DNA of 64,000 nucleotides, from the IMG/VR virus record IMGVR_UViG_3300031950_000001, positions 1-64,000 of that record. The stretch is one strand, 5' to 3'. The notes under the pieces are model-generated. The model was not told the DNA's origin and ran no database searches. It was given only the letters and a program-made list of their open reading frames with translations. Position numbers and translations under genes: made by a program. Below, one piece after another: positions 24,501-55,251 of the stretch. The stretch's first letter is position 1. Each line of letters starts with the position of its first letter. The DNA is from a virus.

Positions 24501-25935
24501 TATTGATACCCTGGCTGGTAAGCGCTATATCCAGAACTCCGAAACGGTTCGCGTCTTTAGCGACGGATTCCGGACGGTTCAAGGTGGGCTTTTCGATGAT
24601 GGGCTTACAGGCGGGCTAGCCGGAACGCGATGGGCGGCTATTAAACTACCGGAGCCTGTTCCCAATCCCGTTATGCTGGAACTGTTAGGGCGGCTCATCG
24701 GGGTTAGCGAAAAAGACTTTATTAGCATGTGGGCAGGAGAAATCCCTATCCCAGAGCGCTACCGGACCGGCAAAGAGCCTATCACTGGTCCCCAAGCCGT
24801 CCTTAATCTATTTAAAAACTATAACGTCAGCCGCGAAATTGAACGAACGAAAGAAGAGCTCCAAGTTGCGGCTCCGTCAAAACGCGCTTCGCTTATCAAA
24901 AAGCTCAATTACCTAGAAGGACTCAAGAAGTTTGGTATTCATCCTTCGGAGCTCTTCTGGACCAAGGTCCCGGTTACCCCGCCCATCTTCCGTCCTATTT
25001 CGATGATTAAGGACGGTACCCTTATCGTTAATGATGCCAACTATCTCTATAAAGAGCTCCTGGATTTCATTTCGGCTTATAGCGAGATTGCAGGAGAACT
25101 CAGCCAACTGACCGATGAGCGGAAAACACTTATTAATATATTAAGAGGTCTAGCCGGTCTTGATGATCCCCATAACTACGCTCTCAAACGACAAGGGATT
25201 AAAGGACTGCTGGCTACGGTTGTCGGCCCTAGTCCCAAGGCCGGCATCATGCAGCGTAAGATGCTGGGTATCAGCGCTACGCTAGCCGGTCGGGCGGTTA
25301 TTACGCCGAATAGCTCATTAGACATTGATGAGATCGGGTTGCCCGAAGACGCGGCTTGGGTGGCGTATAAGCCGTTTATCATTCGCGACCTGATGCGTCG
25401 AGGACTACCCGATAGCGTTCTTCGGAATGTTCCGCCGGCTCTTCGGCAATCTCCCTTCCTTGTGGCCAATCTGCTTGTCAAGGAAAAGCATCCATATGCC
25501 CGAGAATCCCTCCAACGGGTTATTGAGCAACGCCCGGTTGTCGTAAACCGTGCGCCTGTGCTGCATAAATACGGGATTATGGCGTTTAAGCCCGTACTTA
25601 CGCAAGGAAAGACCATTGAGATAAGCCCGCTTATTACTCAAGCTTTTGGGGCGGACTTTGACGGGGATACAATGCAATTCCATGTTCCGGCGTCAGACGA
25701 TGCCGTAAAAGAAGCATTTACGAAGCTACTACCGTCAAAGAACCTCTTTAAGGCAGCAACCCTGACGGAGCCGGTTTATACCCCTCAACAGGACTATCTC
25801 ATTGGTCTTTGGTATGCGCGCCGCGTCGATAAAAATAAACCGGTTAAGGTATTTTCGACGAAGCAAGACGCACTCGCTGCATTTGCAAGGGGCGAAGTCG
25901 CTATCGATCAGCCGATCAAGATTCTCGAAAGCTAA
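21574..25935 (+). CDS. Phage multisubunit RNA polymerase: beta subunit fused to the N-terminal half of beta' (catalytic DFDGD)
   Basis: RpoB-like motifs GVFIING, RDVH..QFG.IDP.TTPE, YEDAFVISE, GDKIAG.YGNKG, GLLELNALLAHGA. RpoC-like motifs VPVTPP.FRP, GRAVI, NRAPVLH, GADFDGD. Confidence 0.95.
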   Translation: MTTPELIDISDVKTIRQRIFDSVRNAFLSTPAYTQGPWSIEISDVDYKDSEPEEELLSPFSHKKAIVTNATLARDLYGTIKITTPDGVIKKRTLLAKVPYLTDRGVFIINGVEYAITNQQRLKPGVYVRFRQTGEPEAFINLPGHKTHRYVLDPRTGIFYIQAGQATFRLYPILKAMGVTDEEIRNAWGADLFARNAVEKSDDLRRFATRMFGSPDVDISREFTQVPVAADVMRRNLGLIQNYLDKRAALASTVKMIQLLQGQAKEDDRDSIANQQFLGPEDIFADGVPMKMRLILRNILWKAMRNPKKEIIPPRPAQAIIDHVIRASGLMSAPAEINPVEILDHLFKVTRMGEGGIGATEAIPYSARDVHATQFGFIDPVTTPESLRVGVDTRFTVTAKRGADGLLYIPAVDVKTGKKTWLNSEQTEDVTIAFPGELETGRKFVRAIHKGSEAIVPRDQVTHYIKDATHIFGPLASLIPMKSACFPQRVAMGSRFITQALPLINREVPLVQSVDAEGTPFVAKFGPYAGAVKSPCKGVVRKVTPDFIEVYDSDAKKTRKIWIHNNTPYARQTALYNEPLVKPGDVIKPGQLLAYSNFTDQNGNLAMGVNAKIAYMATGDTYEDAFVISESFAKRLTAENLFVYEHKPSEGSGKPFYVSLFPNKLTSEALERYTEEGVAKPGTVLSKGDPIVLSVKMLPITTARASHRMFVDDSITWDYDSPGIVIAAGKTKDGYIAMVKSLFETQQGDKIAGQYGNKGVVIIKPDSQMPIGEDGKPVDIVASPFIISRANIGQIYEALLGKVAKKLGRPIYVKDFENADKLHQYVTEMLKKHGVKDTEVLTDPATGRKIRALTGYGYILRLCHIAEDKLQAVDEAIASSVEDIPTVGETGKAKRLGLLELNALLAHGAYDTITDAALIRGQANDEAWRQFMTGYNLPQPKVPHIWHKFVALLRGAGINPIQERSGIRLLALRDKDIDTLAGKRYIQNSETVRVFSDGFRTVQGGLFDDGLTGGLAGTRWAAIKLPEPVPNPVMLELLGRLIGVSEKDFISMWAGEIPIPERYRTGKEPITGPQAVLNLFKNYNVSREIERTKEELQVAAPSKRASLIKKLNYLEGLKKFGIHPSELFWTKVPVTPPIFRPISMIKDGTLIVNDANYLYKELLDFISAYSEIAGELSQLTDERKTLINILRGLAGLDDPHNYALKRQGIKGLLATVVGPSPKAGIMQRKMLGISATLAGRAVITPNSSLDIDEIGLPEDAAWVAYKPFIIRDLMRRGLPDSVLRNVPPALRQSPFLVANLLVKEKHPYARESLQRVIEQRPVVVNRAPVLHKYGIMAFKPVLTQGKTIEISPLITQAFGADFDGDTMQFHVPASDDAVKEAFTKLLPSKNLFKAATLTEPVYTPQQDYLIGLWYARRVDKNKPVKVFSTKQDALAAFARGEVAIDQPIKILES

Positions 25936-26075: not shown

Positions 26076-26273
26076 ATGTTGATATACGACTTTAAAAGCG
26101 GGAAGATGGTAAAGTTTGCAATGCCGGACTTGACGATGCGGCAGTTGCGCGCGCTACAGAGGCATGCGACGCGTGCATTAAAACGCATTGCACTTGCGAC
26201 CACAGTCGATATGTTCCTTGCAAGGAGCCGTCGTCGAAAAGGTTCGTCTTCGCTGCGACGGCGTGGTCTGTAA
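26076..26273 (+). CDS. Leader family L1 protein (short, basic)
   Basis: MLIYDFKSGKMVKFA|MPD. Confidence 0.7.
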   Translation: MLIYDFKSGKMVKFAMPDLTMRQLRALQRHATRALKRIALATTVDMFLARSRRRKGSSSLRRRGL

Positions 26274-26290
26274 AACCGCGAAAAAGAACG

Positions 26291-26536
26291 ATGCTAATCT
26301 ATAACTTTCAAAATAACAAGATGGAAAAGGTTGCGATGCCGGACTGGCTGCGTAATACGCTATCGGTGTTTGGGAGAATCGCAGGCCGCGTATTACGCAA
26401 AATTGCCATTGGGGTTGCGATTGCGGTGTTATTAGGAAAAGATCATCATCATACTAGGATTGGCCTGCCTAGTGTCAACAAACTGCCGTCAACCAGCCGA
26501 TTGTTTCGAACGAAAACGATACGTCTTCCTAAATAA
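26291..26536 (+). CDS. Leader family L1 protein
   Basis: MLIYNFQNNKMEKVA|MPDW. Confidence 0.7.
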   Translation: MLIYNFQNNKMEKVAMPDWLRNTLSVFGRIAGRVLRKIAIGVAIAVLLGKDHHHTRIGLPSVNKLPSTSRLFRTKTIRLPK

Positions 26537-26616
26537 TAGTTGCTGAAAACGCATCCTTCTATGCCTGCGACGACACAGAAGGATGTGATAAACCGAGAGC
26601 CGGAGAGATAAAAACG

Positions 26617-27255
26617 ATGCTAATCCATGATTTTCAAAAACAAGGTCAGACGGTGAAGGTTGAGATGCCTGAATGGTTAGAGGATGCGGTATATGCGCTC
26701 GGAGCACTGGCGATCGGCGGCAGCCTTGGAGGTTATCACGGGGCGGCCCTAGGATCCGCAGCGAGCGTAATCGCCAGCCTCCGTCGCACGCTCAGACGCG
26801 AACTGGCTAAGGATAATGAAAAAGATGAAAAAGACGAAAACGCGACCGAATCGAAGGAAGAGAGTCGCGCTACTCGTCCGTCTGGCAAACTCGAGAAGTC
26901 GGCGATGCCTCTTTGGCTGCGGGATGTACTATCGATAGTCGGAGCGACGATACTTGGCAGCCTTGGTGGAGGTGCTGCCGGGGCGGCACTCGATTCAGCG
27001 CTGGGCGCGGAAGCGCCGGATTTGACGGCTTTACTTGGTGGTCTAGGCGCTGGAGTCGGGTATACAACGGGTATCACGAGCAGATTGCGTCGAGAGGTTC
27101 GCAACGCGCTCAGGGAGGCACGAGAGCAAGGTAAAAGAAAAACCGAACGCTCGAATGTAGATCGTTCGACTTCTCGGAAGACGGACGAAGACGAAGATGA
27201 GGAAGCCGAAATATCGCTTAAAGGCTTGGCTGACGAACTGAAAAAATATGATTAG
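26617..27255 (+). CDS. Leader family L1 protein with two tandem Gly-zipper modules
   Basis: MLIHDFQKQGQTVKVE|MPEWL and an internal GKLEKSA|MPLWL. Confidence 0.75.
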   Translation: MLIHDFQKQGQTVKVEMPEWLEDAVYALGALAIGGSLGGYHGAALGSAASVIASLRRTLRRELAKDNEKDEKDENATESKEESRATRPSGKLEKSAMPLWLRDVLSIVGATILGSLGGGAAGAALDSALGAEAPDLTALLGGLGAGVGYTTGITSRLRREVRNALREAREQGKRKTERSNVDRSTSRKTDEDEDEEAEISLKGLADELKKYD

Positions 27256-27331
27256 CCAAGTTCCAAATTCAAGAAAAAAATGGAAGTGATTTCCGCTCGG
27301 CAAGCAAGTTTTTTTCGATGAAAGGGGACCT

Positions 27332-28081
27332 TTGATGGCAGACTATGACGTTAATGACATTGCGCGTACGATTATCGCGATGTATCTATCCGACGTGGTA
27401 AAGTCGGACATGGAGAAGAAGGGTTTTGTTCCGGTTAAGGCTGGGCAAGACCCGATGGCGGCATTGATGGGAGGTGGTATGCCTCCTGGCGGAGCTCCGC
27501 CCGGAATGCCGCCTGGTGCTCCTATGGGTGGGCCTCCTGGAGCGCCTCCAATGGGTATGCCGGGTATGGGAGCACCGCCTGGTATGCCACCTGATATGGG
27601 TGGAATGGGCGCTCCTCCTGGCGGCGGCGATCTGGGCGGGCTCATGAGCCTTTTAGGCGGTATGCCACCGCCTCCTCCGCCTTCTGGTACCGAGGAAAAA
27701 ACGAAAGAAGAAGAAACGCCTCCCGAAGGAGAAAAGGGGTTCGGCGAGACTACAGGAAAAGGGGAAGTTACCCCTACCGTCCTATATGCGGAGCTTGTCA
27801 AAGTCAGGAAGCTGTTACTGGGTCTGTATGACAAGTTTAATATTAGTGTGCCTACCGATGCTCTGTCGGACGAGGAAGTTTATCTGGGGAAACCTAATAT
27901 TAAAGAGGAAGTAAGACAATCTCCGAAAGAGCGTGAGCAGACAACACCCGAGATTAGGCCGTTGCCGGAGGGGCCGACGGGGGAACTTGGGCCTACGGGT
28001 GCTGTTCCGCCCGAAACGATCCCACCAGCGCCTACGGTACCACCTGAGGTCAAGAACGCCCTTTTGCAATATCGTAGATAA
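27332..28081 (+). CDS. Gly/Pro/Met-rich putative head protein
   Basis: EKKG|FVP followed by GGMPPG low-complexity repeats. Confidence 0.7.
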   Translation: MMADYDVNDIARTIIAMYLSDVVKSDMEKKGFVPVKAGQDPMAALMGGGMPPGGAPPGMPPGAPMGGPPGAPPMGMPGMGAPPGMPPDMGGMGAPPGGGDLGGLMSLLGGMPPPPPPSGTEEKTKEEETPPEGEKGFGETTGKGEVTPTVLYAELVKVRKLLLGLYDKFNISVPTDALSDEEVYLGKPNIKEEVRQSPKEREQTTPEIRPLPEGPTGELGPTGAVPPETIPPAPTVPPEVKNALLQYRR

Positions 28082-28134
28082 AAAAAGAGACAAGGAGATT
28101 TTAAATTCTAGGAGAAAAAAAAGGAGTATTCGAC

Positions 28135-28722
28135 ATGATCTATACGTACCCTTATACTAGCAAAGTCGCTGGCCAAGATCCAGGAAGTGCTAGCGATGCT
28201 GGTCCAGAGCCAAAGCCAGTACCCGCCGTGCCAGCGCCAGGCCCCACCGGGCCGGCAGCAGCTACTAGCCAGCCACCTGCCGGTCCAGGGCCGGCGTCAG
28301 TTCAGCAAGGCCCCACCGGGCCGGCAGCTACTGACCGGCCGGCTACCAATACAGTGCCAGCCGCAGGTGCGACAGACTCCGCCAGGCAAGCAGCAGGTCA
28401 GACAGGTGCCGAGCAACCGATATTCGACCCTGTGACACTTAACGAGATTGCCGGGTACGCAACACTTCCTATACTTCTTGCGCTGATATCTGCCTTTTTG
28501 ACAGATAAGCCTGCCATTCCGCTTGCCTTAGCCTTAGCTGGACTGGGCGCTGCGTATTATAGCCCGTGGGTAAAGGAAAATATTAATGTAATGAGATTGG
28601 CTGAGGCGCTATTTGGTGGCAATACGTCAAACGTGGATACGGAAGATGGCGCAAAAAATAATGCACCACCAAACACTACCCCGGCGACAAACGATTCAGG
28701 AACGTCTGCACAAGGCGGCTAG
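28135..28722 (+). CDS. Family L2-related protein (shared C-terminal hydrophobic hairpin)
   Basis: MIYTYPYTSKVA|G; GYATLPILLALISAFLTDKP..LAGLG is shared with 28843 and 30574. Confidence 0.75.
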   Translation: MIYTYPYTSKVAGQDPGSASDAGPEPKPVPAVPAPGPTGPAAATSQPPAGPGPASVQQGPTGPAATDRPATNTVPAAGATDSARQAAGQTGAEQPIFDPVTLNEIAGYATLPILLALISAFLTDKPAIPLALALAGLGAAYYSPWVKENINVMRLAEALFGGNTSNVDTEDGAKNNAPPNTTPATNDSGTSAQGG

Positions 28723-28842
28723 CCTGATACGACATCTTGATTCCAGAATCAAATTGTGTTTCAGGGCGTTAGTTATTCATAGTCGGGCGTTACAAAAAAA
28801 GATTCGGTGCTAATAACCTAAGCAGAACGAAAGGATCAATAA

Positions 28843-29691
28843 ATGGGTCTCGTATTTAACCCGAACAAATTTTCTTCTACAAAACGAGCAGCCGTACGAG
28901 ATTTCGTTGGACCTTTTTGGGAGGACTATAAGTATTATTTTGATAAAAAATACGGATGGCTTAATCCATTTCCGGCAATTCGCAGCTGGCTACAGCCTGA
29001 TATATCCACGATGCTTCGGGATCCTCAACAACGACAGGCCTTCCTAAACGCCGTATCAGAAATCGCACAGGATCCTCAGCAACGACGCGCCCTCCAAGAT
29101 ATGCTATCAAAAATCTTACCGGATGTTCAGCAACAACAGCAACAACAGCAACAACAATTCCTCAAACAACGGGTTGAACCGGAAGTAGGAAAAATACTCG
29201 GCGGTTATTTCACACTTCCCGCGTTGCTTGCTTTACTTTCGGCGATTTTTACTGATAAGCCTATCGTTCCGATTCTGCTAGGCTTGGCAGGACTTGGTAT
29301 AGCGCACTTCTTCCCCGAAGTTCGAGAGTACGTTAATGCCGCTAACTGGCTAGAGGCGTTGAAGGCGAAACAGGAAGGGACTGGAACCGAGCAGAAGCAG
29401 ACTACGCCCAAGGAGAAGCCGATTGCAGAGCCCCCGTCCGAGCAGAAGCAGACTACGCCCAAGGAGAAGCCGATTGCAGAGCCCCCGTCCGAGCAGCAGC
29501 CGCCTGAAGAGCCTCCGCCTGGGCCGAAACCGCTTGTAGAGCCTACGCCCCCGACCGAGCAGAAGCCGCCTGAAGAGCCTCCGCCTGGGCCGAAACCGCT
29601 TGTAGAGCCTACGCCCCCGACCGAGCAGAAGCCGCCTGAAGAGCCTCCACCCGGGCCGAAACCGCTTGTAGAGCCTACGCCCCCGACGTAG
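28843..29691 (+). CDS. Leader family L2 protein with a Pro/Glu-rich repeat tail
   Basis: MGLVFNPNKFSSTKRA|A; tandem repeats EQKQTTPKEKPIAEPPS x2 and PPEEPPPGPKPLVEPTPPT x3. Confidence 0.8.
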   Translation: MGLVFNPNKFSSTKRAAVRDFVGPFWEDYKYYFDKKYGWLNPFPAIRSWLQPDISTMLRDPQQRQAFLNAVSEIAQDPQQRRALQDMLSKILPDVQQQQQQQQQQFLKQRVEPEVGKILGGYFTLPALLALLSAIFTDKPIVPILLGLAGLGIAHFFPEVREYVNAANWLEALKAKQEGTGTEQKQTTPKEKPIAEPPSEQKQTTPKEKPIAEPPSEQQPPEEPPPGPKPLVEPTPPTEQKPPEEPPPGPKPLVEPTPPTEQKPPEEPPPGPKPLVEPTPPT

Positions 29692-29870
29692 CGGCCTGCC
29701 TGACGTGCACCCTGGGCGAATCCGCAAATGATGCCCTAGATCCAGGTCGCGGCCAAATGCAACAATCGAAAAAATGGCGATTTGTCCGTGACCGAAAATG
29801 GTCGCTGCAAATCCTGTTCTTTATGGTTTGAGGAATAAAGCGGCCATGGTTTCAAACCATTAGAGTCATC

Positions 29871-30097
29871 TGTGAGTAAGGCGCGTTCCGCCCATGTCTT
29901 TCGGCATGGGAGGAACGCTGTCTTGATCCTCTTGCAAACCATGATAAACAACGGAACGTGCAATATCGCGGCCAAGTGCCATGCTCAGGTAAGCGGTGCT
30001 AGTCTGAGCGGACAGCCCGTCAACCTGCCTATCGCGGAGAACCGTGTTCCACACGGCTCACCTACAAGCCTCCGGTTTTAGCCGCGGAGTAGTTGAC
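29871..30097 (+). mobile_element. IS200/IS605-type miniature element (internally deleted tnpB)
   Basis: Left-end hairpin cgttccgcccatg..catgggaggaacg; TnpB C-terminal-like CNIAAK..VNLPIA; right-end palindrome aagcctccggttttagccgcggagtagTTGAC. Confidence 0.7.
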
Positions 30098-30573
30098 ATC
30101 GTGCTTTTGTAGATGAATGTATAAGGTACGAATTCAGGTTAAATAACGACGAGGAAATGGAGGATTATGGCTCGACGCTGGCTCTTGCGCGAGGCAGTGA
30201 TCAGACACGGAACAGTATTATGTCTTGGATACAAAAAGAGCCAACGGTAGCTTCTAAGTTATGTATCAACTTTCGTCAGCTTTAGCGAAATATACTAGGG
30301 ATCGACCAATGACAGATTGTTTTCAGATGGATAAAGAAGAATATTACTGCAGCGAGACGGGCTGAGGCGTTACTTGGAAAACAAGCAGAATACAAAAGGT
30401 GACCAGAACATGGACACGAAGTAGCTAGAACGCGGCCGGATAGGCTGGTACGGCTCCAGCAGACGTCTTGATTCCAGAATCAAATTGTGTTTCAGGCGTT
30501 AATTATTCATAGTCAGGTGTTACAAAAAAAAGATTCGGTACTAATAACCTAAGCAGAACGAAAGGATCAATAA

Positions 30574-31725
30574 ATGGGTCTCGTATTTAACCCGAACAAG
30601 TTTTCGTCTACAAAACGAGCAGCCATACTAGGTTTGCCCTTTTGGGAGGACATTAAGTACTATTATGGCACCCCTCAAGGTCGGCGGGAAAGCTATAAAC
30701 CGATTACCAGCTGGCTACAGCCTGATATATCCACGATTCTTCAGGATCCTCAGCAACGACAGGCCATCCAAAATGCGCTATTAAACGCCCTACAGGATCC
30801 TAAACAACAACAAGTCGTCCAAGAAATGATATTAAAAGGCTTACAGGATCCTAAACAACAACAAGTCGTCCAAGACATGATATTAAAAGGCTTACAGGAT
30901 CCTAAACAACAACAAGTCGTCCAAGACATGATATTAAAAGGCTTACAGGATCCTCAGAAACGATACGTCCTCCAAGACATGGTATTAAGCGTCTTACAGG
31001 ATCCTGCGCAACGACGGGCCCTCCAAGGCATGCTGTTAAGAGGCTTACAGGAGCCTCAGCAACAACAAGCCCTCCAAACCATTATATTAAACATCTTACA
31101 GGATCCTCAGCAACAACAAGCCCTCCAAGACATGATATTAAAAGGCTTACAGGATCCTCAGCAACAACAAGTCATACAAGGCATGCTATTAGACATCTTA
31201 CAGGAGCCTAAGCAACGACTGTTCCTCCGAGACATGATATTAAACGCCTTACAGGATCCTAAACAACAACAAGTCGTCCAAGAAATGATATTAAAAGGCT
31301 TACAGGATCCTCAGTACCAACAAGTCGTCCAAGAAATGATATTAAAAGGCTTACAGGATCCTCAGCAACAACAAGCCCTCCAAACCATTATATTAAACAT
31401 CTTACAGGATCCTAAACAACAACAAGTCGTCCAAGACATGATATTAAAAACCATACAGGATCCTAAGCAACGAGAGGCCCTTCGACAACAGTTTAAACAG
31501 GAAACAGGAAGAATACTCGGCGGTTATTTCACACTTCCCGCGTTGCTTGCTTTACTTTCGTCGATTTTTACTGATAAGCCTATCGTTCCGATTCTGCTAG
31601 GCTTGGCGGGACTTGGTATAGCACACTTCTTCCCCGAAGTTCGAGAGAACGTTAATATCGCTAAGTGGCTATCGGCGTTGGAGAAACAGGAAGGGTCTGA
31701 GGCCGGGGAAGGGACGCCTACATAG
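30574..31725 (+). CDS. Leader family L2 protein with about 15 x 17-aa Gln-rich repeats
   Basis: Same leader as 28843; (QDPKQQQVVQDMILKGL)n with 51-bp periodicity; same hydrophobic C-terminus. Confidence 0.85.
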   Translation: MGLVFNPNKFSSTKRAAILGLPFWEDIKYYYGTPQGRRESYKPITSWLQPDISTILQDPQQRQAIQNALLNALQDPKQQQVVQEMILKGLQDPKQQQVVQDMILKGLQDPKQQQVVQDMILKGLQDPQKRYVLQDMVLSVLQDPAQRRALQGMLLRGLQEPQQQQALQTIILNILQDPQQQQALQDMILKGLQDPQQQQVIQGMLLDILQEPKQRLFLRDMILNALQDPKQQQVVQEMILKGLQDPQYQQVVQEMILKGLQDPQQQQALQTIILNILQDPKQQQVVQDMILKTIQDPKQREALRQQFKQETGRILGGYFTLPALLALLSSIFTDKPIVPILLGLAGLGIAHFFPEVRENVNIAKWLSALEKQEGSEAGEGTPT

Positions 31726-31896
31726 CATGCGCCCGGGACGAAGTCGCCGGAGGAGCCACTAGGTCCAGGTGGCGGTCCAATGCACTAATCGAAAAAAACG
31801 GCGATTTGTCTGTGATCAAAAAATCGATCACCGCAAATCCTGTTCTTTATAGCGTGAGGAATAAAGCGGCCATAGTTTCAAACCATTGTAGTCATC

Positions 31897-32304
31897 CCAC
31901 CAGAACACAAGCATCCGCAAGGTCGGTCGGGATAGACGCGGACGAAGACTTTAGCCGTTCTCTCCGATGGCAAGCGGTACGAGAACCAAGTGCTGCTATG
32001 CTCAAGACTGAGAAAGTTGAAGCGTTTGAACCGTGAGTTATCCCGCCGACAAGAGAGTAGAGGAAGAAGTTGGCGACGCTACATCGTCGGATATTTGAAT
32101 ACCGCTAGAAGCATTGAGCGGGAAGCATTACGTTTAATCGACAGATGCCGGAGTGGGTTCACGGACTCTCTAAACGGGCGTGGACGGGAAGGCTCTGGCT
32201 ATCGGGAAACCGATAGTGAAACCGGCCCGAATAAAGCGCCAAAATTGGCCGAAGAAAGGCGGCCTTCCAGACCTGCCGTTGTTTAGGCAGGTTTGGTAAA
32301 CCAG
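31897..32304 (+). mobile_element. Degenerate tnpB remnant with the same right end as the 451-bp element
   Basis: SVGID / LAVLSDGKRYENQ / RLRKLKRLNRELSRRQ / NTARSIEREAL fragments; ends ggcaggtttggtaaaccag. Confidence 0.75.
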
Positions 32305-32311
32305 GTGTAAC

Positions 32312-32572
32312 ATGCTGATCGCAGACTTTCGTACCGGTAAAATGACCAAACTGGCCATTGATTGGAAGGGTCTTTTCTCTGTTCTAATGTCGGGCGCGGT
32401 AGGTGGAATTGGCGGACTCGGCGCTGGCGGTCTTATTGACCTACTCCGTGGAGACGGAACGCAGGACTATACCAAAACGCTCGGACTAATCGGTCTGATT
32501 AGCGGTCTTGGTTATGGCGGCGCCAGAAAGCTGCTTGAGTATTTATTTAGTGATCATAAGGAGGAAAAATAA
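32312..32572 (+). CDS. Leader family L1 protein (leader plus Gly-zipper hairpin only)
   Basis: MLIADFRTGKMTKLA|IDW. Confidence 0.8.
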   Translation: MLIADFRTGKMTKLAIDWKGLFSVLMSGAVGGIGGLGAGGLIDLLRGDGTQDYTKTLGLIGLISGLGYGGARKLLEYLFSDHKEEK

Positions 32573-32575
32573 GGG

Positions 32576-32830
32576 GTGTTGATATTCGACTTTCGTACCG
32601 GCAAAATGACTAAGAGGGCGTTCGACTTTGTCGATTTCGTCGATATTGTCGTGCCTGCGTTGAAAGGAGGCATATATGGGCTTATTGGACTAGTGCTTGG
32701 CGATATTATCGATCAGCACATTGGTACCAGAAATCGATGGGCCACGATTCTTGGTCTTACGGGCTTGATCGCAGGTTTGGGCATTGGAGGGTACAGCCGC
32801 TACTTAGCTCGGCGACACTTAGAGCAATGA
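32576..32830 (+). CDS. Leader family L1 protein (leader plus Gly-zipper hairpin only)
   Basis: MLIFDFRTGKMTKRA|FDF. Confidence 0.8.
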   Translation: MLIFDFRTGKMTKRAFDFVDFVDIVVPALKGGIYGLIGLVLGDIIDQHIGTRNRWATILGLTGLIAGLGIGGYSRYLARRHLEQ

Positions 32831-32910
32831 CGTTCAGACTGGACGGTAGTGCTTAGCTGTGAAGAGCGTAGGTTACTAGATGGCTAAGCTCTTTCCGAGA
32901 TTCGAAAAAA

Positions 32911-34242
32911 ATGTTAATACTCGACTTTCGTACTGGCAAAATGACTAAAATAGCGCTAGACTTTAGCGACGCAGCTTCCGCACTGATATCGGCCGGATTA
33001 CTCGGTCTCGGCGGGGCCGGCCTTGGCTATCTCATTGACATGCGAGCCGGGACCGGAAAGCGATGGACTAAGATTCTTGGCTTGTTAGGCCTGCTGGGCG
33101 GGCTTGGGCTCGGTGCGTACGGCCGATATTTGTATAAAACGGACCAAACATCTCCCAATCAGGACGGTATGGCGGCTAGTCCTCTAGCGGTATCTGGCAG
33201 CACGTCCGATACAGCGCCCGAAGAACAGGCTCGCCGCTTGCCAGCCGACGGTTCGCCACTATCAATCGCACCTACCTCTGACAAGGTACAATCTGACGCC
33301 CCATCGGCTAAAACGCGGCCGACACGCCCGTCTAGCGGCTCATCCGACGCGCCACGAACTTCTTCAGGATCGTCGCGTAGTCCGTCCAACCAGCAACAGC
33401 CCTCTGTTTCTATAAGCTCGTCTGCCGGTTCAGCTGGCACGAAACTGCCTCCTAGCCCGCCAGCTGTACAGCATCCTCAAGGGCTGCATAGCGAGTCATC
33501 CAATAGAGCACAATCTCCGTCAGCGTCGTCTGGTCAGGCATCCGGCACGCCACAAACTTCTTCAAAATCAGCGCCCGGTTCATCTGGTACGGCACAATCT
33601 TCGTTAGGGTCATCCGGTCGCCCATCTGCTGCGCCGCCAACTTCTCCAGGATCATCGAGTGGTCCGTCCGACCAGAAACAGACTTCCGGTTCTACAGGAT
33701 CGTCTGCCGGGTCATCTGGTACGAAACCGTCCTCTACAGGGATCAGGCTTTCCGATGACCTCGCACAGAGGTTAGTAGAAAGAGTAAAGACGTTCCTTAA
33801 AGATACGCGGGGATCGCCTGACGATACGGATAGATATAAGGATCTTGATCAAGCACCTAACGAGATGTGCGTTCGACTTGTGCACACGGGAGTCCAAGGC
33901 GGTCAGGGCGTCTATCAGCCGGATGCCCGAGCCTATCGGGCAGCCGCAGAATTTGCTCGCGGCGACGAACAAAAACAGAGAGCAATTCGTCTCGCGAAGC
34001 GTTTCAGTGCACGGATCCATCTGCTTTTATTGCTCCAGCCCAAGCTTGCGCCTGATATGGCACAAGACATAACTCAGCGTATTAACGATGCTCTAACGGT
34101 GTTGCTAACGTTAAAGCCCGACGCATCAAACGCAGACGAGATCGATAAGTATTTTGCAGACAGGCTGCGCGGTTTGTTTAGTAATGATATTATTAATAAG
34201 GCGCTAACCGATCCCTTTTCGATTTCGCCTGAACCACGTTAA
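32911..34242 (+). CDS. Leader family L1 protein with Ser-rich linker and C-terminal domain
   Basis: MLILDFRTGKMTKIA|LDF. Confidence 0.85.
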   Translation: MLILDFRTGKMTKIALDFSDAASALISAGLLGLGGAGLGYLIDMRAGTGKRWTKILGLLGLLGGLGLGAYGRYLYKTDQTSPNQDGMAASPLAVSGSTSDTAPEEQARRLPADGSPLSIAPTSDKVQSDAPSAKTRPTRPSSGSSDAPRTSSGSSRSPSNQQQPSVSISSSAGSAGTKLPPSPPAVQHPQGLHSESSNRAQSPSASSGQASGTPQTSSKSAPGSSGTAQSSLGSSGRPSAAPPTSPGSSSGPSDQKQTSGSTGSSAGSSGTKPSSTGIRLSDDLAQRLVERVKTFLKDTRGSPDDTDRYKDLDQAPNEMCVRLVHTGVQGGQGVYQPDARAYRAAAEFARGDEQKQRAIRLAKRFSARIHLLLLLQPKLAPDMAQDITQRINDALTVLLTLKPDASNADEIDKYFADRLRGLFSNDIINKALTDPFSISPEPR

Positions 34243-34457
34243 ACGAAGTCGAAAGCTGTTTTCAAATTTTATCTTCGTCAGTCCCTGATAGCACTGTACG
34301 GTCCAGAACGAAACTTACCGAACGAAGAAGCGGCTGAAAGGGAATTTCAACCAGTGATAGAGTTGTTTAAGCAGACTAACATCGGAGAGATTCAGAGGGC
34401 GCTAGAAAATCCATTTTCCCTTTTAACTGAATCACCCTAGAAAAGGGGGTAATTATC

Positions 34458-35285
34458 ATGCGAATCCTTGACTTTCGCGCTGGCAAAATGACGAAACGGG
34501 GGTTAGACCTTGGTGATGTTGGTGATGTTCTTTCCGTGGTAGGACCGGGAGCATTGTTTGGTATCGGTGGTGCAGGGCTTGGTAGTATCATTGATATGCT
34601 AGCCGGCACTAAACGTCGATGGACCACGATTCTTGGCCTGACAGGATTGGCTGGAGGCGTTGGGCTTGGAAGTACAGGTCTATTTAAGTCCTGGTTCGCA
34701 GCAGAACGAGGGCCTGAGTTCCCCAAGAAACTAAGTGACATCCCAGCTTATGCTAAGATCTTCCGCTATATCGTATTTATGCGAGCAGATCCGAGTGCAT
34801 TCAAAGGCTCTGATCATCCTATATTTCGACGCCTCCCTGAGATGGATGGAGAGCAGCTGTATTGCCATCTTACGCAGCTGGGGATTGCTCCGAACACGCT
34901 TCCGGGGTATAGAGCGAATCCGTATGTCCATAACGTGGCGGCAAACCTAGTTTCTCCTACCGACCCGCGACAGTTTGCAATTCTACATGCGGCGCATTTC
35001 AACCTGGAAGTTGTGCCGTTACAACTGTGCTGGAACGAGCTTGATGCAAACCAGCGCAACCGACTATTTTCGTCTCTCGGTGCGTATAGGGAGAAATTGG
35101 CTTTAAACGCCAACGACCCTACAATCAGCAAGGAAGCCGATAACGAGTTTAATAAACTAGTAAAGCAACTTATAGAGTACGGGAAAAAAGAGCATGCAGA
35201 TGCACTACGAATATTGCACCAGCAGCATCAAATGGACGTCCAAGAATTTGCTCAACAAATTCAGCAAGTTAAGCAACGACCGTAA
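34458..35285 (+). CDS. Leader family L1 protein with variable C-terminal domain
   Basis: MRILDFRAGKMTKRG|LDL. Confidence 0.85.
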   Translation: MRILDFRAGKMTKRGLDLGDVGDVLSVVGPGALFGIGGAGLGSIIDMLAGTKRRWTTILGLTGLAGGVGLGSTGLFKSWFAAERGPEFPKKLSDIPAYAKIFRYIVFMRADPSAFKGSDHPIFRRLPEMDGEQLYCHLTQLGIAPNTLPGYRANPYVHNVAANLVSPTDPRQFAILHAAHFNLEVVPLQLCWNELDANQRNRLFSSLGAYREKLALNANDPTISKEADNEFNKLVKQLIEYGKKEHADALRILHQQHQMDVQEFAQQIQQVKQRP

Positions 35286-35510
35286 TGACATTAAAGAACC
35301 CTGATTCATTATCACGATTTCTTTTATCTTCGTCGGTTCCTGATAGCATTGTACGATCCAGAGCGAAATTCACTGAACGAAACAGCGGCCGAGAAGGAAT
35401 TTCAACCAGTGATAGAGTTGTTTAAGCAGGCTAACATAAGAGAGATTCAGAAGGCGCTAGAAAATCCGCTTTCCCTTTTAACTGAATCACCCTAGAAAAG
35501 GGTAATTATC

Positions 35511-36293
35511 ATGCGAATCCTTGACTTTCGTACCGGCAAAATGACGAAACTGGCGTTAGACTTTGGTTATATTCCTGCTATGGCTATACCGGGAGTATTG
35601 TATGGTATCGGTGGTGCAGGGCTAGGTAGTCTCATTGATAGGCTAGCCGGCACTAAACGTCGATGGACCACGATTCTTGGTCTGCTAGGATTGGCCGGAG
35701 GTGCTGGGGCTGGAGGGTTGCTCCGATATCTGGATGAGCGCTCCAATACTCCTGAAGCGCAGATGCGTCGGTTCCTAACGAATGCAACGGCGCCGCCGTC
35801 TGATCAGTTTGTGCAACAGATGAGCGAGACCTTCCCATATATAGTTGAGACTTTCCGAAAGGCCGCTACCGAAAAGAAACCGAGCGATCTGATTCGTGGT
35901 CTTATCTGGCCATTATACGAGGAAGGCGGAATTTGGCTTTATAACCCGAGTGCCAGCGAGTTCCAACTTATCCTCTATTTCGCTTCTAAAACGCGAAACC
36001 ATGAGATGATACTACCTGCAATTGATCTTGCAACGGATATAGCTGCGCAAGGTCGGTTGCTTTCGCGGTATCAGGAATGGATTCCGGAGAATTTACGGCC
36101 AGAGATAGAGAACCACTTTAGGAACTATGTGAATGCGACTATCGACTATGTCGAAGGTAAGACGCCGGATCCGAACGCGCCTAAATTATATCTTGACAAG
36201 TTGGTGAAACTACTCAAGGATACAAATAAAAAAGAGCTTATAGAAATTGCGGATCTGATCAGACAACCACGTAAGGTTCTACAACAACAGTAA
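35511..36293 (+). CDS. Leader family L1 protein with variable C-terminal domain
   Basis: MRILDFRTGKMTKLA|LDF; shares GRLLSRYQ..IPE.LRPEIE.HF with 37155. Confidence 0.85.
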   Translation: MRILDFRTGKMTKLALDFGYIPAMAIPGVLYGIGGAGLGSLIDRLAGTKRRWTTILGLLGLAGGAGAGGLLRYLDERSNTPEAQMRRFLTNATAPPSDQFVQQMSETFPYIVETFRKAATEKKPSDLIRGLIWPLYEEGGIWLYNPSASEFQLILYFASKTRNHEMILPAIDLATDIAAQGRLLSRYQEWIPENLRPEIENHFRNYVNATIDYVEGKTPDPNAPKLYLDKLVKLLKDTNKKELIEIADLIRQPRKVLQQQ

Positions 36294-36472
36294 ACAAGAA
36301 CGGGAATACTGATAACGATCAAAATTTTGATTCCGGAATCAAATTTCGATGATGGTTCCGGAATACGCCAATGGTGCGGGCTGATATAGCCCGTTTTTCG
36401 TGGTCTTGGCCGTGAGAGTATTAGGTCAACCTGATTAAGTTATTCATCTCGGCGCCAAATGCGCACAAATTC

Positions 36473-36689
36473 ATGTTAATACTCGATTTTCGTACCGGCC
36501 GATATAACAGAATTCAGCCCGAAGGCTACGATCCAGATCCCGTAGACTACCAAGCTGCTAGCCAAGCTGCTATAATAAAATCTGTACCGTCCAAACCGAC
36601 GAAGTGATAGAGTTGTTTAAGCAGGCTAACGTCGGAGAGATTCAAAGGGCTATAGAAATCCGTTTTCCCTTTTAACTGAATCACCCTAG
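36473..36689 (+). pseudogene. Collapsed L1 family pseudogene
   Basis: Begins MLILDFRTG, then fragments GYDPDPVDYQAA and VIELFKQAN. Upstream ~200 bp duplicates 37930-38132. Confidence 0.7.
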
Positions 36690-36693
36690 AAAG

Positions 36694-37144
36694 GAGGTTA
36701 AAGCTGTTTTCAAATAACTAACTATACCGCTACAAACATACCAATAACACTTGACAAGAGACAAAGATGCGATATACTAATTGGTAAGGATTACCTGCTG
36801 GTCGACAGTGAAATAATCGAGGTTGACCGTCGTTCGGTATAGACACGGGCGTCAAGGCGTTAGCCGTTCTCTCAGATGGAAAGCGGTACGAGAACCAAGT
36901 ACTGCTACGCTCAAGACTGAGAAGTTGTCGACGCTACATCGACGGATATTTGAACGCCGCTCGGAACATTGAGCGGGAAGCGTTACGTTTGATCAACAGA
37001 GGCCGGAGTGGGTTCACGGACTCTCTAAACGGACGTGGACAGGACGTAAGACCCTTCGGGGCAGTCCTGGATGAAACGTCAAAATTGGCTGAAGAAAGGC
37101 AGCCTTCCATTCCTGCCGTGGTTTAGGCAGGTTTGGTAAACCAG
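36694..37144 (+). mobile_element. Non-autonomous TnpB-derived miniature element, copy 2
   Basis: Matches 1616-2066. Inserted within a G-run of a site whose empty paralog is ccctagaaaag|ggtaattatcATG at ~35490-35513. Confidence 0.85.
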
Positions 37145-37154
37145 GGTAACTATC

Positions 37155-37922
37155 ATGTTAATCCTTGACTTTCGCACCGGCAAAATGACGAAACTGGCGT
37201 TAGACTTTGGTGATGTTGCGTCCGTGGCGATACCGGGGGCGTTGTTGGGTCTCGGTGGTGTGGGGCTCGGTAGTCTAATTGATATGCTAGCCGGCACTAA
37301 ACGTCGATGGACCACGATTCTTGGTCTGACAGGACTGGCCGGAGGTGCGGGGCTTGGAGGATTGGGTCGATATCTGTATAAGCGCGATCCTACATATCAG
37401 ACGTTTGTGTTCCTAGATAAGGCATTCACGCCGGCGACTGAGTCGGATGTGCAGAAGAAGTTCGGTAACAACCCAGACGCGATTGCGGCGCACCAAACCC
37501 GAATCAATAACATGACGCCGACCGAACTGATTAATAGTCTTATCGAACCAATGTACAAGGACTTTTGGGGGTATGACCCGGATGTTCTCGATTTCCAAGT
37601 TGCCCGCTATCTCGTTTCTAAACAGGCCGATAACGCGAAATTAACCGCACTTAATATCGCCGTGGATATAGCGGTACGAGGTCGGTTGCTTTCGCGGTAT
37701 CAGAAACGGATTCCGGAGGATTTACGGCCAGAAATAGAGAAACACTTTATGAACTATGCGCGCGAAATGACCAATCAGTTCGCAAGTGCGAATCCAAATT
37801 GGGAAGTGCCTAAATCGCATCTTCAGACGTTGGTAGGGTTACTCGTGGCGACGAATCAAGAAGAGGTCGAAAAACTTGCGAAGCTAGTCGCAAATCCATA
37901 TAGCGTTCGGGATCAATCATAA
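37155..37922 (+). CDS. Leader family L1 protein with variable C-terminal domain
   Basis: MLILDFRTGKMTKLA|LDF. Confidence 0.85.
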   Translation: MLILDFRTGKMTKLALDFGDVASVAIPGALLGLGGVGLGSLIDMLAGTKRRWTTILGLTGLAGGAGLGGLGRYLYKRDPTYQTFVFLDKAFTPATESDVQKKFGNNPDAIAAHQTRINNMTPTELINSLIEPMYKDFWGYDPDVLDFQVARYLVSKQADNAKLTALNIAVDIAVRGRLLSRYQKRIPEDLRPEIEKHFMNYAREMTNQFASANPNWEVPKSHLQTLVGLLVATNQEEVEKLAKLVANPYSVRDQS

Positions 37923-38105
37923 AAAAACGAACGGGAATATTGATCGGTATCAAAAAATTTTGATTCCGGAATCAAATTTCGATGATGGTTCCGGAATACG
38001 CCAATGGTGCAGACCGATATAGCCCGTTTTTCGTGGTCTTGGCCGTGAGAGTATTAGGTCAACCTGATTAAGTTATTCATCTCGGCGCCAAATGCGCACA
38101 AATTC

Positions 38106-38918
38106 ATGTTAATACTCGATTTTCGTACCGGCCGAATGACCAAGTTTGCTTTGGAATGGCGCGGGCCGCTTGTTGATTGGCAAGGACTGGCTCGTGACTG
38201 GGGGTTGATCGGGCTACTGACCCTTGGCGGACTCGGCGTCGGCAGTCTTGTTGATTGGCTTCGCGATCGAAAGCTCTTTAGTGACGTCTCAAAACGAATT
38301 TTGTTGCTAAGCTTAGCGGTGGGATCGGTCGCTACGCTCGGCCGTTTTATGAATCAAAATATTTGGCTATATTTGCGGAAACGGAAACCGCTGGAAGGCC
38401 AAGGAAAAGAAATCGCGGACAAACATATCGAATTTGCCGCAAAATTACTAGAATTGCATAAAAGCGCGGCGAACGGATCAGCACAGATCAAGGACCCAGG
38501 ATTGCCAGTTGATATGACATTGAGTGAGATCGTCCGCGCAGGCAAGACGGGTGATCATCGATTCCTCGACGCGATTCAGAAGGTTTTGCAAAGTACGCGT
38601 TATAACCTGGATCAGGATTATAAAAACGCCGTCGATGATCTACTAAACTCCGTCGCGTTCTGGCATCTAATGCAAGCCATGCTTTCGAAAGTGCCGCCAA
38701 ACCACCCGATACGACAGACAATCAACCAGAAAATGGATCGCTGTATGCTTGATCCGCGCGTCGCGCGACAAGCGGAAGTTGAATCGATGAAGGCCGATCT
38801 TAGCGCCTTACAAATTCCCAATGCGCACGCTACAGTAGAGACGTTATTCTCGAATCCAGATGCGTTTATACAATCATGGCCGCAAATGTCGGCTAAACTC
38901 TTTGAACAGACAAAATAG
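38106..38918 (+). CDS. Leader family L1 protein with variable C-terminal domain
   Basis: MLILDFRTGRMTKFA|LEW. Confidence 0.85.
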   Translation: MLILDFRTGRMTKFALEWRGPLVDWQGLARDWGLIGLLTLGGLGVGSLVDWLRDRKLFSDVSKRILLLSLAVGSVATLGRFMNQNIWLYLRKRKPLEGQGKEIADKHIEFAAKLLELHKSAANGSAQIKDPGLPVDMTLSEIVRAGKTGDHRFLDAIQKVLQSTRYNLDQDYKNAVDDLLNSVAFWHLMQAMLSKVPPNHPIRQTINQKMDRCMLDPRVARQAEVESMKADLSALQIPNAHATVETLFSNPDAFIQSWPQMSAKLFEQTK

Positions 38919-39000: not shown

Positions 39001-39285
39001 ATGCGAATTGTACTCGACAATAAAGAATTTGAATGTAAGAAGTTCGTCGTATTCGACAAGTTTGGCAACGCGGTCGCTGCCGGATATGATCATGCTGATG
39101 TCCTCGTGTTTGATACATGTGCCGGCCCCGATTTTCCGAAAATTCTCTCCATTGTTGGCTATCCAGATCGTCTTCCAACACAGATCATTGATACAAAACC
39201 ATTAATACCGGAGCTTTCTCCTATCAAGCCTGACACAGGTGCCGACCATGCAGGAAACGACCATTGGACAACTCTTAATTTCTAG
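39001..39285 (+). CDS. Hypothetical protein
   Basis: 94-aa ORF overlapping the start of the RNAP beta'C gene. Confidence 0.6.
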   Translation: MRIVLDNKEFECKKFVVFDKFGNAVAAGYDHADVLVFDTCAGPDFPKILSIVGYPDRLPTQIIDTKPLIPELSPIKPDTGADHAGNDHWTTLNF

Positions 39286-41985: not shown

Positions 41986-42088
41986 ACACAAAACCGTCGA
42001 GAAACGTAACGCACGTAACGTCGGGTCGCATTTGATTAAGGAAATTGAAAAATTTGATTCCGGAATCAAAATTTTGAGGTCGCTGTCG

Positions 42089-43021: not shown

Positions 43022-43087
43022 TCACAAAACGATAGTTGAAAAACGAGATTTTTTTGATTCCGTAATCAAATCTTGAGGGCTCGACCA

Positions 43088-47049: not shown

Positions 47050-47051
47050 AC

Positions 47052-49232: not shown

Positions 49233-49239
49233 GTAGACC

Positions 49240-49647: not shown

Positions 49648-49651
49648 GCCT

Positions 49652-50422: not shown

Positions 50423-50423
50423 G

Positions 50424-51779: not shown

Positions 51780-51815
51780 ACAACCCTCCTTTTTTGACCA
51801 GAAAGGTTTAAAACA

Positions 51816-52079: not shown

Positions 52080-52125
52080 CATTTTCGGTTGTCGCGAGCA
52101 ATTTAGCAAAAAATAGGACAAAACG

Positions 52126-55137: not shown

Positions 55138-55251
55138 AAAATTTGATTCCGGAATCAAATTTTTAAGAGTAGCTGTGTTGGGTGTTTCTTATATGCTATA
55201 ATAAAAAATTGAAAAACGAGCGTTTCGCGGATTTCATTTGGAGGAGCAAAT

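What the first reader, a model, noticed from the sequence alone, without database searches (positions are those of the whole stretch)
26076..38918. Polymorphic cargo family sharing a 15-aa leader MLIxDFRxGKMxKxA, a candidate capsid-targeting/export tag
Seen: ten intact genes and one pseudogene begin with a related 15-16-residue leader. Eight end in K-x-A, one in K-R-G and one in K-V-E. In the 32-39 kb members a glycine-zipper helix-loop-helix (often IDxxxGTxxRWxxILG) follows. C-termini range from absent to divergent helical domains. The cluster lies between the two RNAP genes. Known: T4 internal proteins carry a short N-terminal capsid-targeting sequence removed by the prohead protease, and polymorphic toxin loci pair a conserved trafficking N-terminus with swappable C-termini. 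Inference: a tag-and-cleave system that loads an expandable set of membrane-inserting proteins into the virion for delivery to the host. I do not recognise a described family with this leader.
Basis: partly seen in the sequence, partly recalled or inferred. Interest (0 to 1): 0.92.

Follow-up and report, generated by a model that had tools for sequence, protein, structure and literature searches.

The report
Shared cleavable leader on phage head cargo
An uncultured 142-kb phage puts the same 15-residue tag on a fast-changing set of small, mostly basic proteins; the tag ends in a Lys-x-Ala motif found on nearly all of its head proteins, so it probably loads them into the capsid and is then cut off, as in phage T4, though this is untested.

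Summary
Ten intact genes and one 5' remnant, all between the two RNA polymerase genes, begin with M-[LR]-I-x-D-F...G-K-M-x-K-x-A, and the leader occurs nowhere else in the 144-kb contig.

The leader is held by selection on the protein. Its dN/dS is 0.075, against 0.47 just downstream, at equal synonymous divergence.

The family is tiny: 19 hits among 1.84 billion representatives, and one copy in a sister phage.

New evidence partly supports the tag-and-cleave reading:
- K-x-A in the first 40 residues is the most enriched of all 400 X.Y motifs in the head-gene block (15/19 against 20/107 elsewhere, p=6e-7).
- These sites are kept in sister-phage orthologues, and the motif recurs in head proteins of distant relatives (Salmonella phage Arash, Vibrio phage D69, a 202-kb metagenomic phage).
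- The 53731 protein has the T4 gp21/assemblin protease fold (Z 10.4).
- In Arash the homologous RNA polymerase is the most abundant virion protein.

Packaging, cleavage and membrane insertion are untested.

This is a new variant of a known principle: the T4 capsid-targeting sequence, and SPN3US gp53/gp54 with identical 15-residue N-termini. Notes from this scan report similar K-x-A leaders on other DNA. Interest is moderate.

The parts
26076..26273 (+). Leader-family member, 65 aa, pI 12, no Gly-zipper; leader ends K-F-A
26291..26536 (+). Leader-family member, 81 aa, pI 11.8; leader ends K-V-A
26617..27255 (+). Leader-family member, 212 aa, two tandem modules. The first follows K-V-E and the second follows an internal K-S-A near residue 105.
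   Evidence: relative P0014 has K-V-A and the same internal K-S-A
32312..32572 (+). Leader-family member, 86 aa: leader plus Gly-zipper hairpin only
32576..32830 (+). Leader-family member, 84 aa, GTG start: leader plus hairpin only
32911..34242 (+). Leader-family member, 443 aa: leader, hairpin, long Ser/Pro/Gly-rich linker, helical C-terminus
34458..35285 (+). Leader-family member, 275 aa; leader ends K-R-G; own type of C-terminal domain, shared with metagenomic P0009, P0018 and P0020
35511..36293 (+). Leader-family member, 260 aa; C-terminal domain 37% identical to that of the 37155 protein
36473..36607 (+). 5' remnant of a 38106-like member (44 aa). Its start and its upstream 180 nt duplicate 37954-38135.
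37155..37922 (+). Leader-family member, 255 aa. Residues 75-255 model as an all-alpha bundle (pLDDT above 90) with no fold match; residues 1-71 are not confidently modelled.
38106..38918 (+). Leader-family member, 270 aa, divergent hairpin and its own C-terminal domain
28135..31725 (+). Three genes (28135, 28843, 30574) sharing a second hydrophobic hairpin. The last two share another leader, MGLVFNPNKFSSTKRAA. All three have K-x-A at residues 10-16.
41131..45376 (+). Third leader family: three genes whose roughly 29-aa leader ends K-[TR]-A-Q
21574..25935 (+). RNA polymerase beta fused to beta' N-terminal part. It is about 29-30% identical to Arash gp206, the most abundant virion protein of that phage.
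39239..41089 (+). RNA polymerase beta' C-terminal part
   Evidence: PF04998 on the orthologue
53731..55137 (+). Prohead protease candidate. Residues 14-228 have the T4 gp21/assemblin fold; a Cys4 insert is present; 14 K-x-A tripeptides occur against 3.0 expected.
46567..62951 (+). Head-module block. It includes an acidic scaffold-like protein (55252) and the major capsid protein (57578). In 15 of 19 proteins K-x-A lies within the first 40 residues.
31897..32311 (+). Remnant of a mobile element whose full copy is at about 84.7-86.8 kb of the contig. It ends just upstream of the start codon of the 32312 gene.
36690..37144 (+). Second remnant of the same element, 99.8% identical to 1612-2066. It ends 10 nt upstream of the start codon of the 37155 gene.

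Best explanation
The 15-residue leader is a modular N-terminal address and propeptide. It works like the T4 capsid-targeting sequence. Its first part (M-L-I-x-D-F...) would bind the assembling head core. Its last five residues (M-x-K-x-A) would be a cleavage site for the phage's gp21-type prohead protease, encoded at 53731-55137. The tagged proteins would be internal head proteins. Some are small and very basic. Most carry a Gly-zipper hairpin followed by an exchangeable all-alpha domain. They would be packaged together with a virion RNA polymerase and delivered into the host at infection. The array expands and turns over quickly between strains.

Shown: the family exists; the leader is under protein-level selection and is modular; K-x-A is shared with head proteins across the clade; the protease fold is present.

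Inferred: binding to the head core, cleavage, packaging, ejection and membrane insertion.
For: 1) The leader is under strong purifying selection at saturated synonymous divergence (dN/dS 0.075 against 0.47).
2) It is nearly invariant in metagenomic relatives whose bodies are only 40-59% identical.
3) It is modular. It occurs on a protein with no hairpin (26076), on hairpin-only proteins, on at least four unrelated C-termini, and on a relative with the hairpin replaced.
4) K-x-A within residues 3-40 is the top outlier of all 400 X.Y motifs in the head block: 15/19 against 20/107, Fisher p=5.8e-7.
5) The sites persist in the sister phage with x varying.
6) The motif recurs in Arash gp220-226 (7/7; 0 of 2000 shuffles reach this), in D69 genes 268-275 (7/8; 3 of 2000) and in a 202-kb metagenomic phage. 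It is aligned between the window's and Arash's capsid proteins.
7) K-x-A is over-represented inside the 53731 protease candidate itself (14 against 3.0 expected) and in the neighbouring 50382 protein (13 against 4.9), as T4 core proteins carry many sites.
8) The 53731 protein matches T4 gp21 with Z 10.4, rmsd 3.4 A over 142 of 165 residues, followed by herpesvirus assemblins.
9) In Arash virion mass spectrometry, RNAP beta is the most detected protein. Beta', two proteins encoded between them, and the protease homologue are also detected (PMC10585845).
10) A head-module protein (52126) has a similar Gly-zipper hairpin and an N-terminal K-x-A.
11) There is a precedent. SPN3US head paralogues gp53 and gp54 share an identical 15-residue N-terminus holding the protease motif, and head paralogue families vary in number between phages (PMC5694885).
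Against: - No proteomic or biochemical data exist for this uncultured phage.
- K-x-A is a low-information motif, and the head block was delimited after I had seen the pattern.
- Two members end K-R-G and K-V-E.
- The residue after the site is hydrophobic in this family (L, I, F, M). In most head-protein sites it is small or polar.
- The window's RNA polymerase subunits lack an N-terminal K-x-A.
- The Arash virion list holds 116 proteins, including probable contaminants.
- Two hydrophobic helices are unusual for capsid contents, and AlphaFold gives no confident model of residues 1-71.
Confidence: 0.55

Rival explanations
1. The proteins are ordinary non-virion inner-membrane proteins made in the infected cell, for example for superinfection exclusion, host takeover or lysis control. 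The leader is a conserved cytoplasmic segment ahead of a signal-anchor helix, perhaps with two starts (M1 and M11) as in holin/antiholin pairs. The K-x-A ending is coincidental.
For: There are two moderately hydrophobic Gly/Ala-rich helices resembling SAR or pinholin domains. The leader carries positive charges ahead of the first helix. Met11 is nearly invariant. There is no direct evidence of packaging.
Against: - No Shine-Dalgarno-like sequence precedes the Met11 codon, whereas purine-rich sites precede Met1 or the GTG start.
- Residues 2-10 are under strong protein-level selection.
- The leader also sits on proteins without the hairpin.
- The loop and both flanks of the hairpin are all positively charged, which gives no clear topology.
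- The M-x-K-x-A ending matches the clade-wide head-protein motif.
- The locus lies within the head module.
Confidence: 0.25
2. The leader is a head-targeting or partner-binding tag that is not cleaved. It might dock on the scaffold, on the virion RNA polymerase or on the 52126 protein. K-x-A in head proteins would be a binding motif rather than a cleavage motif.
For: Leader residues 2-10 are conserved well beyond what a cleavage site needs. The residue after the site is atypically hydrophobic. Two members lack the terminal Ala.
Against: The homologous protease family in T4, phiKZ and SPN3US recognises exactly such x-X-x tripeptide ends of N-terminal propeptides. Many K-x-A copies lie inside the 53731 protease candidate and other head-module proteins (50382, the scaffold-like 55252), which fits degradation sites.
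Confidence: 0.12
3. The shared 5' end reflects a constraint on the nucleic acid: a translation-initiation or RNA element, a recombination substrate, or recent gene conversion. It is not a peptide function.
For: Intergenic repeats and mobile-element remnants abut several members, and 5' duplications exist, such as 36321-36502 against 37954-38135 at 98%.
Against: Synonymous divergence in the leader is as high as downstream (pS 0.57 against 0.60), while non-synonymous change is five-fold lower. No Rfam family matches. The peptide persists with ATG and GTG starts and with different upstream sequences.
Confidence: 0.03
4. The proteins are secreted bacteriocin-like or polymorphic-toxin peptides with an export leader.
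For: A conserved leader with a variable body and Gly-rich core resembles class II microcins and polymorphic toxin loci in outline.
Against: There is no double-glycine, Sec, Tat or lipobox signature. No transporter, peptidase or immunity gene lies in the locus. The C-terminal domain has no toxin-like fold match. The genes sit in a lytic phage head module.
Confidence: 0.03

Closest known systems
Phage T4 capsid-targeting sequence (CTS) on internal proteins IPI, IPII, IPIII and Alt, removed by prohead protease gp21
   Same: A short N-terminal peptide is shared by otherwise dissimilar, mostly basic proteins. It ends in the tripeptide motif that the phage's gp21-fold protease would use on head proteins. 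The protease gene lies in the head module.
   Different: There is no sequence similarity. The predicted site is K-x-A, not L/I-x-E. The cargo carries a Gly-zipper hairpin and large helical domains. There are eleven copies in a strain-variable array. Nothing has been shown experimentally.
Head paralogue families and processed ejection proteins of phiKZ-like giant phages (SPN3US gp53/gp54, phiKZ gp93; PMC5694885)
   Same: Paralogues that have diverged extensively keep an identical 15-residue N-terminus containing the protease motif. Family size varies between phages. The genes are syntenic with virion RNA polymerase and protease genes. Some ejection proteins have predicted transmembrane helices.
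   Different: The motif there is A/S/G-x-E. The lineage, polymerase architecture (beta-beta'N fusion plus beta'C) and protein families all differ. The genome is 142 kb, not a jumbo phage.
Herpesvirus assemblin
   Same: It shares the protease fold (Z 5-6.7) and cleaves after Ala in a hydrophobic-x-Ala motif. This makes Ala at P1 plausible.
   Different: The proposed P3 is Lys here. The substrates are scaffold proteins, not tagged cargo.
Glycine-zipper membrane helices and pinholin/SAR domains
   Same: Both have repeated small-xxx-small spacing in weakly hydrophobic helices.
   Different: No Pfam Gly-zipper family reaches threshold. No lysis genes are adjacent. Topology is unclear.

Membership tests
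CTS-type propeptide-tagged internal head proteins (T4 IPs, SPN3US/phiKZ processed paralogues) | A short N-terminal peptide shared by proteins that are otherwise divergent | tested here: met
   the leader is near-invariant, bodies are 27-79% identical over the N-terminal region, and C-termini are mostly unrelated.
CTS-type propeptide-tagged internal head proteins (T4 IPs, SPN3US/phiKZ processed paralogues) | The leader ends in the same tripeptide motif that marks N-termini of true head proteins (capsid, scaffold, protease) | tested here: met
   K-x-A is present in 15/19 head-block proteins (p=5.8e-7, best of 400 motifs). It is kept in the sister phage and recurs in head proteins of Arash, D69 and L022.
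CTS-type propeptide-tagged internal head proteins (T4 IPs, SPN3US/phiKZ processed paralogues) | The phage encodes a gp21/assemblin-fold prohead protease | tested here: met
   Model of the 53731 protein against 5jbl_A: Z 10.4, rmsd 3.4 A, 142 aligned residues. The top three Foldseek hits are gp21. The catalytic triad H101/S162/H209 is only inferred from invariant columns.
CTS-type propeptide-tagged internal head proteins (T4 IPs, SPN3US/phiKZ processed paralogues) | The leader is removed by the protease during head maturation | not testable with these tools
   This needs N-terminomics or an in vitro cleavage assay.
CTS-type propeptide-tagged internal head proteins (T4 IPs, SPN3US/phiKZ processed paralogues) | The proteins are present in the virion and ejected into the host | not testable with these tools
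   There is only an indirect analogy: the Arash virion proteome contains the RNA polymerase, the protease homologue and two proteins encoded between the polymerase genes.
CTS-type propeptide-tagged internal head proteins (T4 IPs, SPN3US/phiKZ processed paralogues) | Sequence homology to T4 or phiKZ internal protein families | tested here: not met
   No Pfam or PHROG family matches. Only 19 hits were found in 1.84 billion representatives, all in the same lineage.
Polymorphic toxin systems | Variable C-terminal toxin domain with an adjacent immunity gene | tested here: inconclusive
   The C-terminal domain of the 37155 protein has no significant fold match (Foldseek E above 0.3; best VIA Z 7.4 to generic helical bundles). 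No small partner gene follows each member.
Class II holin / pinholin with dual-start motif | Two transmembrane domains, two functional starts, linkage to an endolysin | tested here: inconclusive
   Two weak hydrophobic helices are present. No ribosome-binding site precedes Met11. No endolysin is nearby. Eleven paralogues with domains of about 180 aa are atypical.
Pfam glycine-zipper families (PF13441, PF13488, PF05433) | Match at the gathering threshold | tested here: not met
   One search gives only sub-threshold ATPase_gene1 hits. The Atlas feature search gives a weak lead to Gly-zipper_YMGG at 0.79.

The most novel reading that the evidence does not exclude
K-x-A is the cleavage code of a large, uncharacterised clade of gp21-fold prohead proteases, with more than 1000 homologues in 100-200-kb phages. 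If so, virion cargo could be read directly from genome sequence across that clade. In this phage the code, together with a private 10-residue address, loads a rapidly diversifying set of membrane-anchoring effectors that are injected with a virion RNA polymerase to disarm or remodel the host envelope.
Probability: 0.3. Interest if true: 0.7.

Novelty: new variant of a known kind. Interest (0 to 1): 0.55.

Why it matters
If the reading is right, the contents of the capsid could be predicted from sequence alone. This would apply to a widespread and almost unannotated group of large phages that carry their own RNA polymerase. A simple N-terminal signature (leader plus K-x-A) would mark them. The prediction can be tested in cultured relatives (Salmonella phage Arash, Vibrio phage D69). 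Injected proteins are where anti-defence and host-takeover functions are often found, and this locus varies between near-identical strains as such genes usually do. A short, modular packaging tag would also be useful for loading foreign proteins into phage heads, as has been done with the T4 tag.

Tried and rejected
- Pfam and PHROGs on ten locus proteins found no family. Pfam on ten head-module proteins found nothing.
- Rfam at gathering threshold and a tRNA scan of the window found nothing.
- A degenerate DNA pattern for the leader gave 0 hits in IMG/VR. It gave 9 hits in metagenome contigs; one (L009) is a chance internal match in an unrelated enzyme-like ORF.
- Fold searches with the 37155 model gave no significant match in PDB or BFVD. 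The wide VIA search gave only generic helical bundles, with best Z 7.4.
- The ESM Atlas feature search scored below 0.9.
- A sequence search of PDB with the 53731 protein found nothing.
- The genome search could not reach the sister-phage record, so I walked the contig with the look-up of encoding contigs instead.
- The genome-wide 16-bp palindrome was examined as a possible timing marker. It occurs 38 times in all modules and does not discriminate.
- Rejected readings: gene conversion or an RNA-level constraint; dual-start holin; export leader.
- BLAST among C-terminal domains links only 35511 and 37155.
- One script call returned no answer and was repeated.


Full report
**What is there**

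The window is the first 64 kb of a 144,055-bp contig. Its last ~1.7 kb repeats positions up to ~1740, so it is a complete or circularly permuted phage genome of about 142 kb. Between a 1453-aa RNA polymerase beta-beta'N fusion (21574-25935) and a 616-aa beta'C protein (39239-41089) lie eleven + strand ORFs. They begin with M-[LR]-I-x-[DN]-F-x-x-x-x-M-x-K-x-A. A six-frame scan finds this leader nowhere else in the genome.

There are two subgroups:
- The three members at 26 kb continue with M-P-x-W-L and an amphipathic or basic body. The 26617 protein repeats that module after an internal K-S-A.
- The members at 32-39 kb continue with a Gly-rich helix-loop-helix. After it comes nothing (84-86 aa proteins) or one of several C-terminal domains.

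**Is the leader more than shared ancestry?**

I collected 32 distinct members from the window and from related metagenome contigs. For 21 hairpin-bearing members I computed Nei-Gojobori distances:

| Region | pS | pN | dN/dS |
|---|---|---|---|
| Leader codons 2-15 | 0.57 | 0.077 | 0.075 |
| Codons 16-85 | 0.60 | 0.39 | 0.47 |

Synonymous sites are equally saturated in both regions. The leader is therefore kept by selection on the peptide, not by recent duplication, gene conversion or an RNA element.

The leader is also modular. It sits on a protein with no hairpin (26076), on hairpin-only proteins, on at least four unrelated C-termini, and on one metagenomic relative whose hairpin is replaced by a Gln/Pro linker.

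**How wide is the family?**

- No Pfam or PHROG family matches.
- A profile of the first ~80 residues finds 19 proteins among 1.84 billion representatives.
- A word-indexed search finds 12.
- A degenerate DNA pattern finds none in IMG/VR and eight true contigs in metagenomes.
- Closely related strains (flanks 94-97% identical) carry the same locus with a different set of paralogues that are 70-90% identical.
- A sister phage, whose protease-like protein is 76% identical, has a single member with a diverged leader (M-L-I-Y-D-F...T-K-L-A) just upstream of beta'C.

The family is therefore old in this lineage and has expanded in the window's phage.

**The K-x-A ending**

While listing N-termini of all predicted proteins, I saw that K-x-A near the N-terminus is concentrated in the gene block at 46.5-63 kb. 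I then tested all 400 X.Y motifs. K.A is the top outlier: 15 of 19 block proteins against 20 of 107 other + strand proteins, Fisher p=5.8e-7. The next motif has p=0.014. The block was delimited after seeing the pattern, but the margin is large.

- In the sister phage the sites are kept at aligned positions while the middle residue changes. This holds for the 726-aa protein, the 53731 protein, the acidic scaffold-like protein, the 56479, 56901, 60639, 60846 and 61677 proteins, and the capsid protein.
- The same holds in distant relatives that share the polymerase and the 53731 homologue at 30-40% identity. In Salmonella phage Arash gp220-226 it is 7 of 7, and 0 of 2000 composition-preserving shuffles reach this. 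In Vibrio phage D69 genes 268-275 it is 7 of 8, reached by 3 of 2000 shuffles. A 202-kb metagenomic phage shows it too.
- The window's 57578 protein is homologous to the annotated Arash major capsid protein (E 2e-25), and the K-x-A is aligned.
- In D69 the sites often read M-x-K-x-A. This is exactly the end of the leader here (M-T-K-L-A), and it explains the near-invariant Met11.
- K-x-A is also over-represented inside the 53731 protein (14 against 3.0 expected) and the 50382 protein (13 against 4.9). T4 core proteins likewise carry many protease sites.
- The two other leader families of the locus, and the 28135 protein, also end in K-x-A.

**The protease**

The 53731 protein has more than 1000 homologues on contigs of 100-200 kb, and none is annotated. 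An AlphaFold model built from 32 homologues has mean pLDDT 78.7, with the N-terminal domain mostly above 85.

- Its three best Foldseek matches are chains of T4 gp21.
- VIA-align gives Z 10.4, rmsd 3.4 A, over 142 of 165 residues of 5jbl_A. Herpesvirus assemblins follow at Z 5-6.7.
- Invariant or near-invariant His101, Ser162 and His209 have the His-Ser-His order of this fold, with a four-Cys insert between Ser and the second His. Assigning them as the catalytic triad is my inference.
- Assemblins cut after Ala, so Ala at P1 is plausible (my own knowledge).

**Context**

- The published virion proteome of Arash lists RNAP beta (gp206) as the most detected protein. It also lists beta' (gp216), two proteins encoded between them (gp210, gp213), and the protease homologue gp222 (PMC10585845). 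The polymerase of this clade is therefore probably a virion enzyme, and the space between its genes belongs to the head module.
- D69 has, at the same place, a 59-aa protein that starts M-D-K-V-A and continues with a Gly-zipper and a basic tail.
- The window's head module itself encodes a 485-aa protein (52126) with an N-terminal K-H-A and a hairpin resembling the family's.
- Most members are basic, with pI 8-12.

**What the bodies are**

The 37155 protein models as an all-alpha bundle over residues 75-255 (pLDDT above 90). It has no significant match in PDB or BFVD, and only generic helical matches by VIA (best Z 7.4). Residues 1-71 are not confidently modelled. The function of the mature proteins is therefore open. 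The hairpin helices are hydrophobic enough for membrane insertion only marginally: 1.5-1.85 and 1.1-1.5 on a 19-residue Kyte-Doolittle window. All three flanks are positively charged.

**Reading**

The best explanation is a cleavable address tag in the manner of the T4 capsid-targeting sequence.

The closest described case is SPN3US. There, head paralogues gp53 and gp54 have diverged extensively but keep an identical 15-residue N-terminus that holds the protease motif. Head paralogue families in those phages also vary in number between phages (PMC5694885).

Four things are different here: the predicted code (K-x-A), the private address, the Gly-zipper cargo, and the strain-level turnover.

I put 0.55 on this reading. 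I put 0.25 on a non-virion membrane-protein family, and the rest on an uncleaved tag or minor alternatives. Packaging, cleavage and membrane insertion remain untested.

Notes from this scan report comparable leaders ending in K-x-A on other genomes, and K-x-A enrichment in this one. I reached the enrichment independently, and I did not test the other genomes.

Noticed in passing
window 25944, 28737, 30468, 36327, 37960, 38947, 41095, 42054, 43054, 46348, 46409, 55143, 60566 and 25 more sites in the contig: A perfect 16-bp palindrome, TTGATTCCGGAATCAA, usually flanked by A/T runs, occurs 38 times (up to 1 mismatch) and appears to lie between genes. It sits about 17-20 nt upstream of several start codons. 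It is probably a promoter or terminator signal for the phage's own polymerase.
   Followed up: partly
window 1612-2066, 31897-32311, 36690-37144; full copy at contig 84.7-86.8 kb (outside the window): A mobile element has left remnants that end a few bases upstream of start codons of leader-family genes. Its full copy has a 203-aa ORF with an HTH-like N-terminus and a 421-aa ORF with a TnpB-like N-terminus, which suggests an IS607-type element. The 455-nt remnant at 36690 is 99.8% identical to the one at 1612.
   Followed up: partly
window 30574-31725: This gene holds at least 12 tandem 51-nt (17-aa) repeats rich in Gln (D-P-K/Q-Q-Q-Q...). Its paralogue at 28843 has few of these repeats but carries Pro-rich 66-nt repeats at its end.
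   Followed up: no
window 61677-62951; L019:60-536 and L019:655-2286: Proteins with an H-E-x-x-H motif, possibly metallopeptidases. One lies in the head/neck region of the window. Two paralogues lie upstream of the leader-family gene in the sister phage.
   Followed up: no
contig 109412-110581 (outside the window): A 389-aa protein with 10 K-x-A tripeptides (3.0 expected), three of them in the first 40 residues. It may be a second scaffold or core-like substrate encoded away from the head module.
   Followed up: no
L010:1285 region (minus strand), protein P0026: A metagenomic family member keeps the leader and the 34458-type C-terminal domain, but it has a Gln/Pro-rich linker instead of the Gly-zipper hairpin.
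   Followed up: no
L021:5446-5625 (Vibrio phage D69) and L020:10661-10816 (Arash gp212): Small Gly-zipper proteins with basic tails are encoded between the RNAP beta and beta' genes in both cultured relatives. The D69 protein starts M-D-K-V-A.
   Followed up: partly
window 34267-34447, 35322-35502, 36603-36701: The spacers between members are homologous (about 89-90% identical). The spacer at 36292-36472 duplicates 37923-38105. The array thus grew by unit duplication that included the intergenic DNA.
   Followed up: partly
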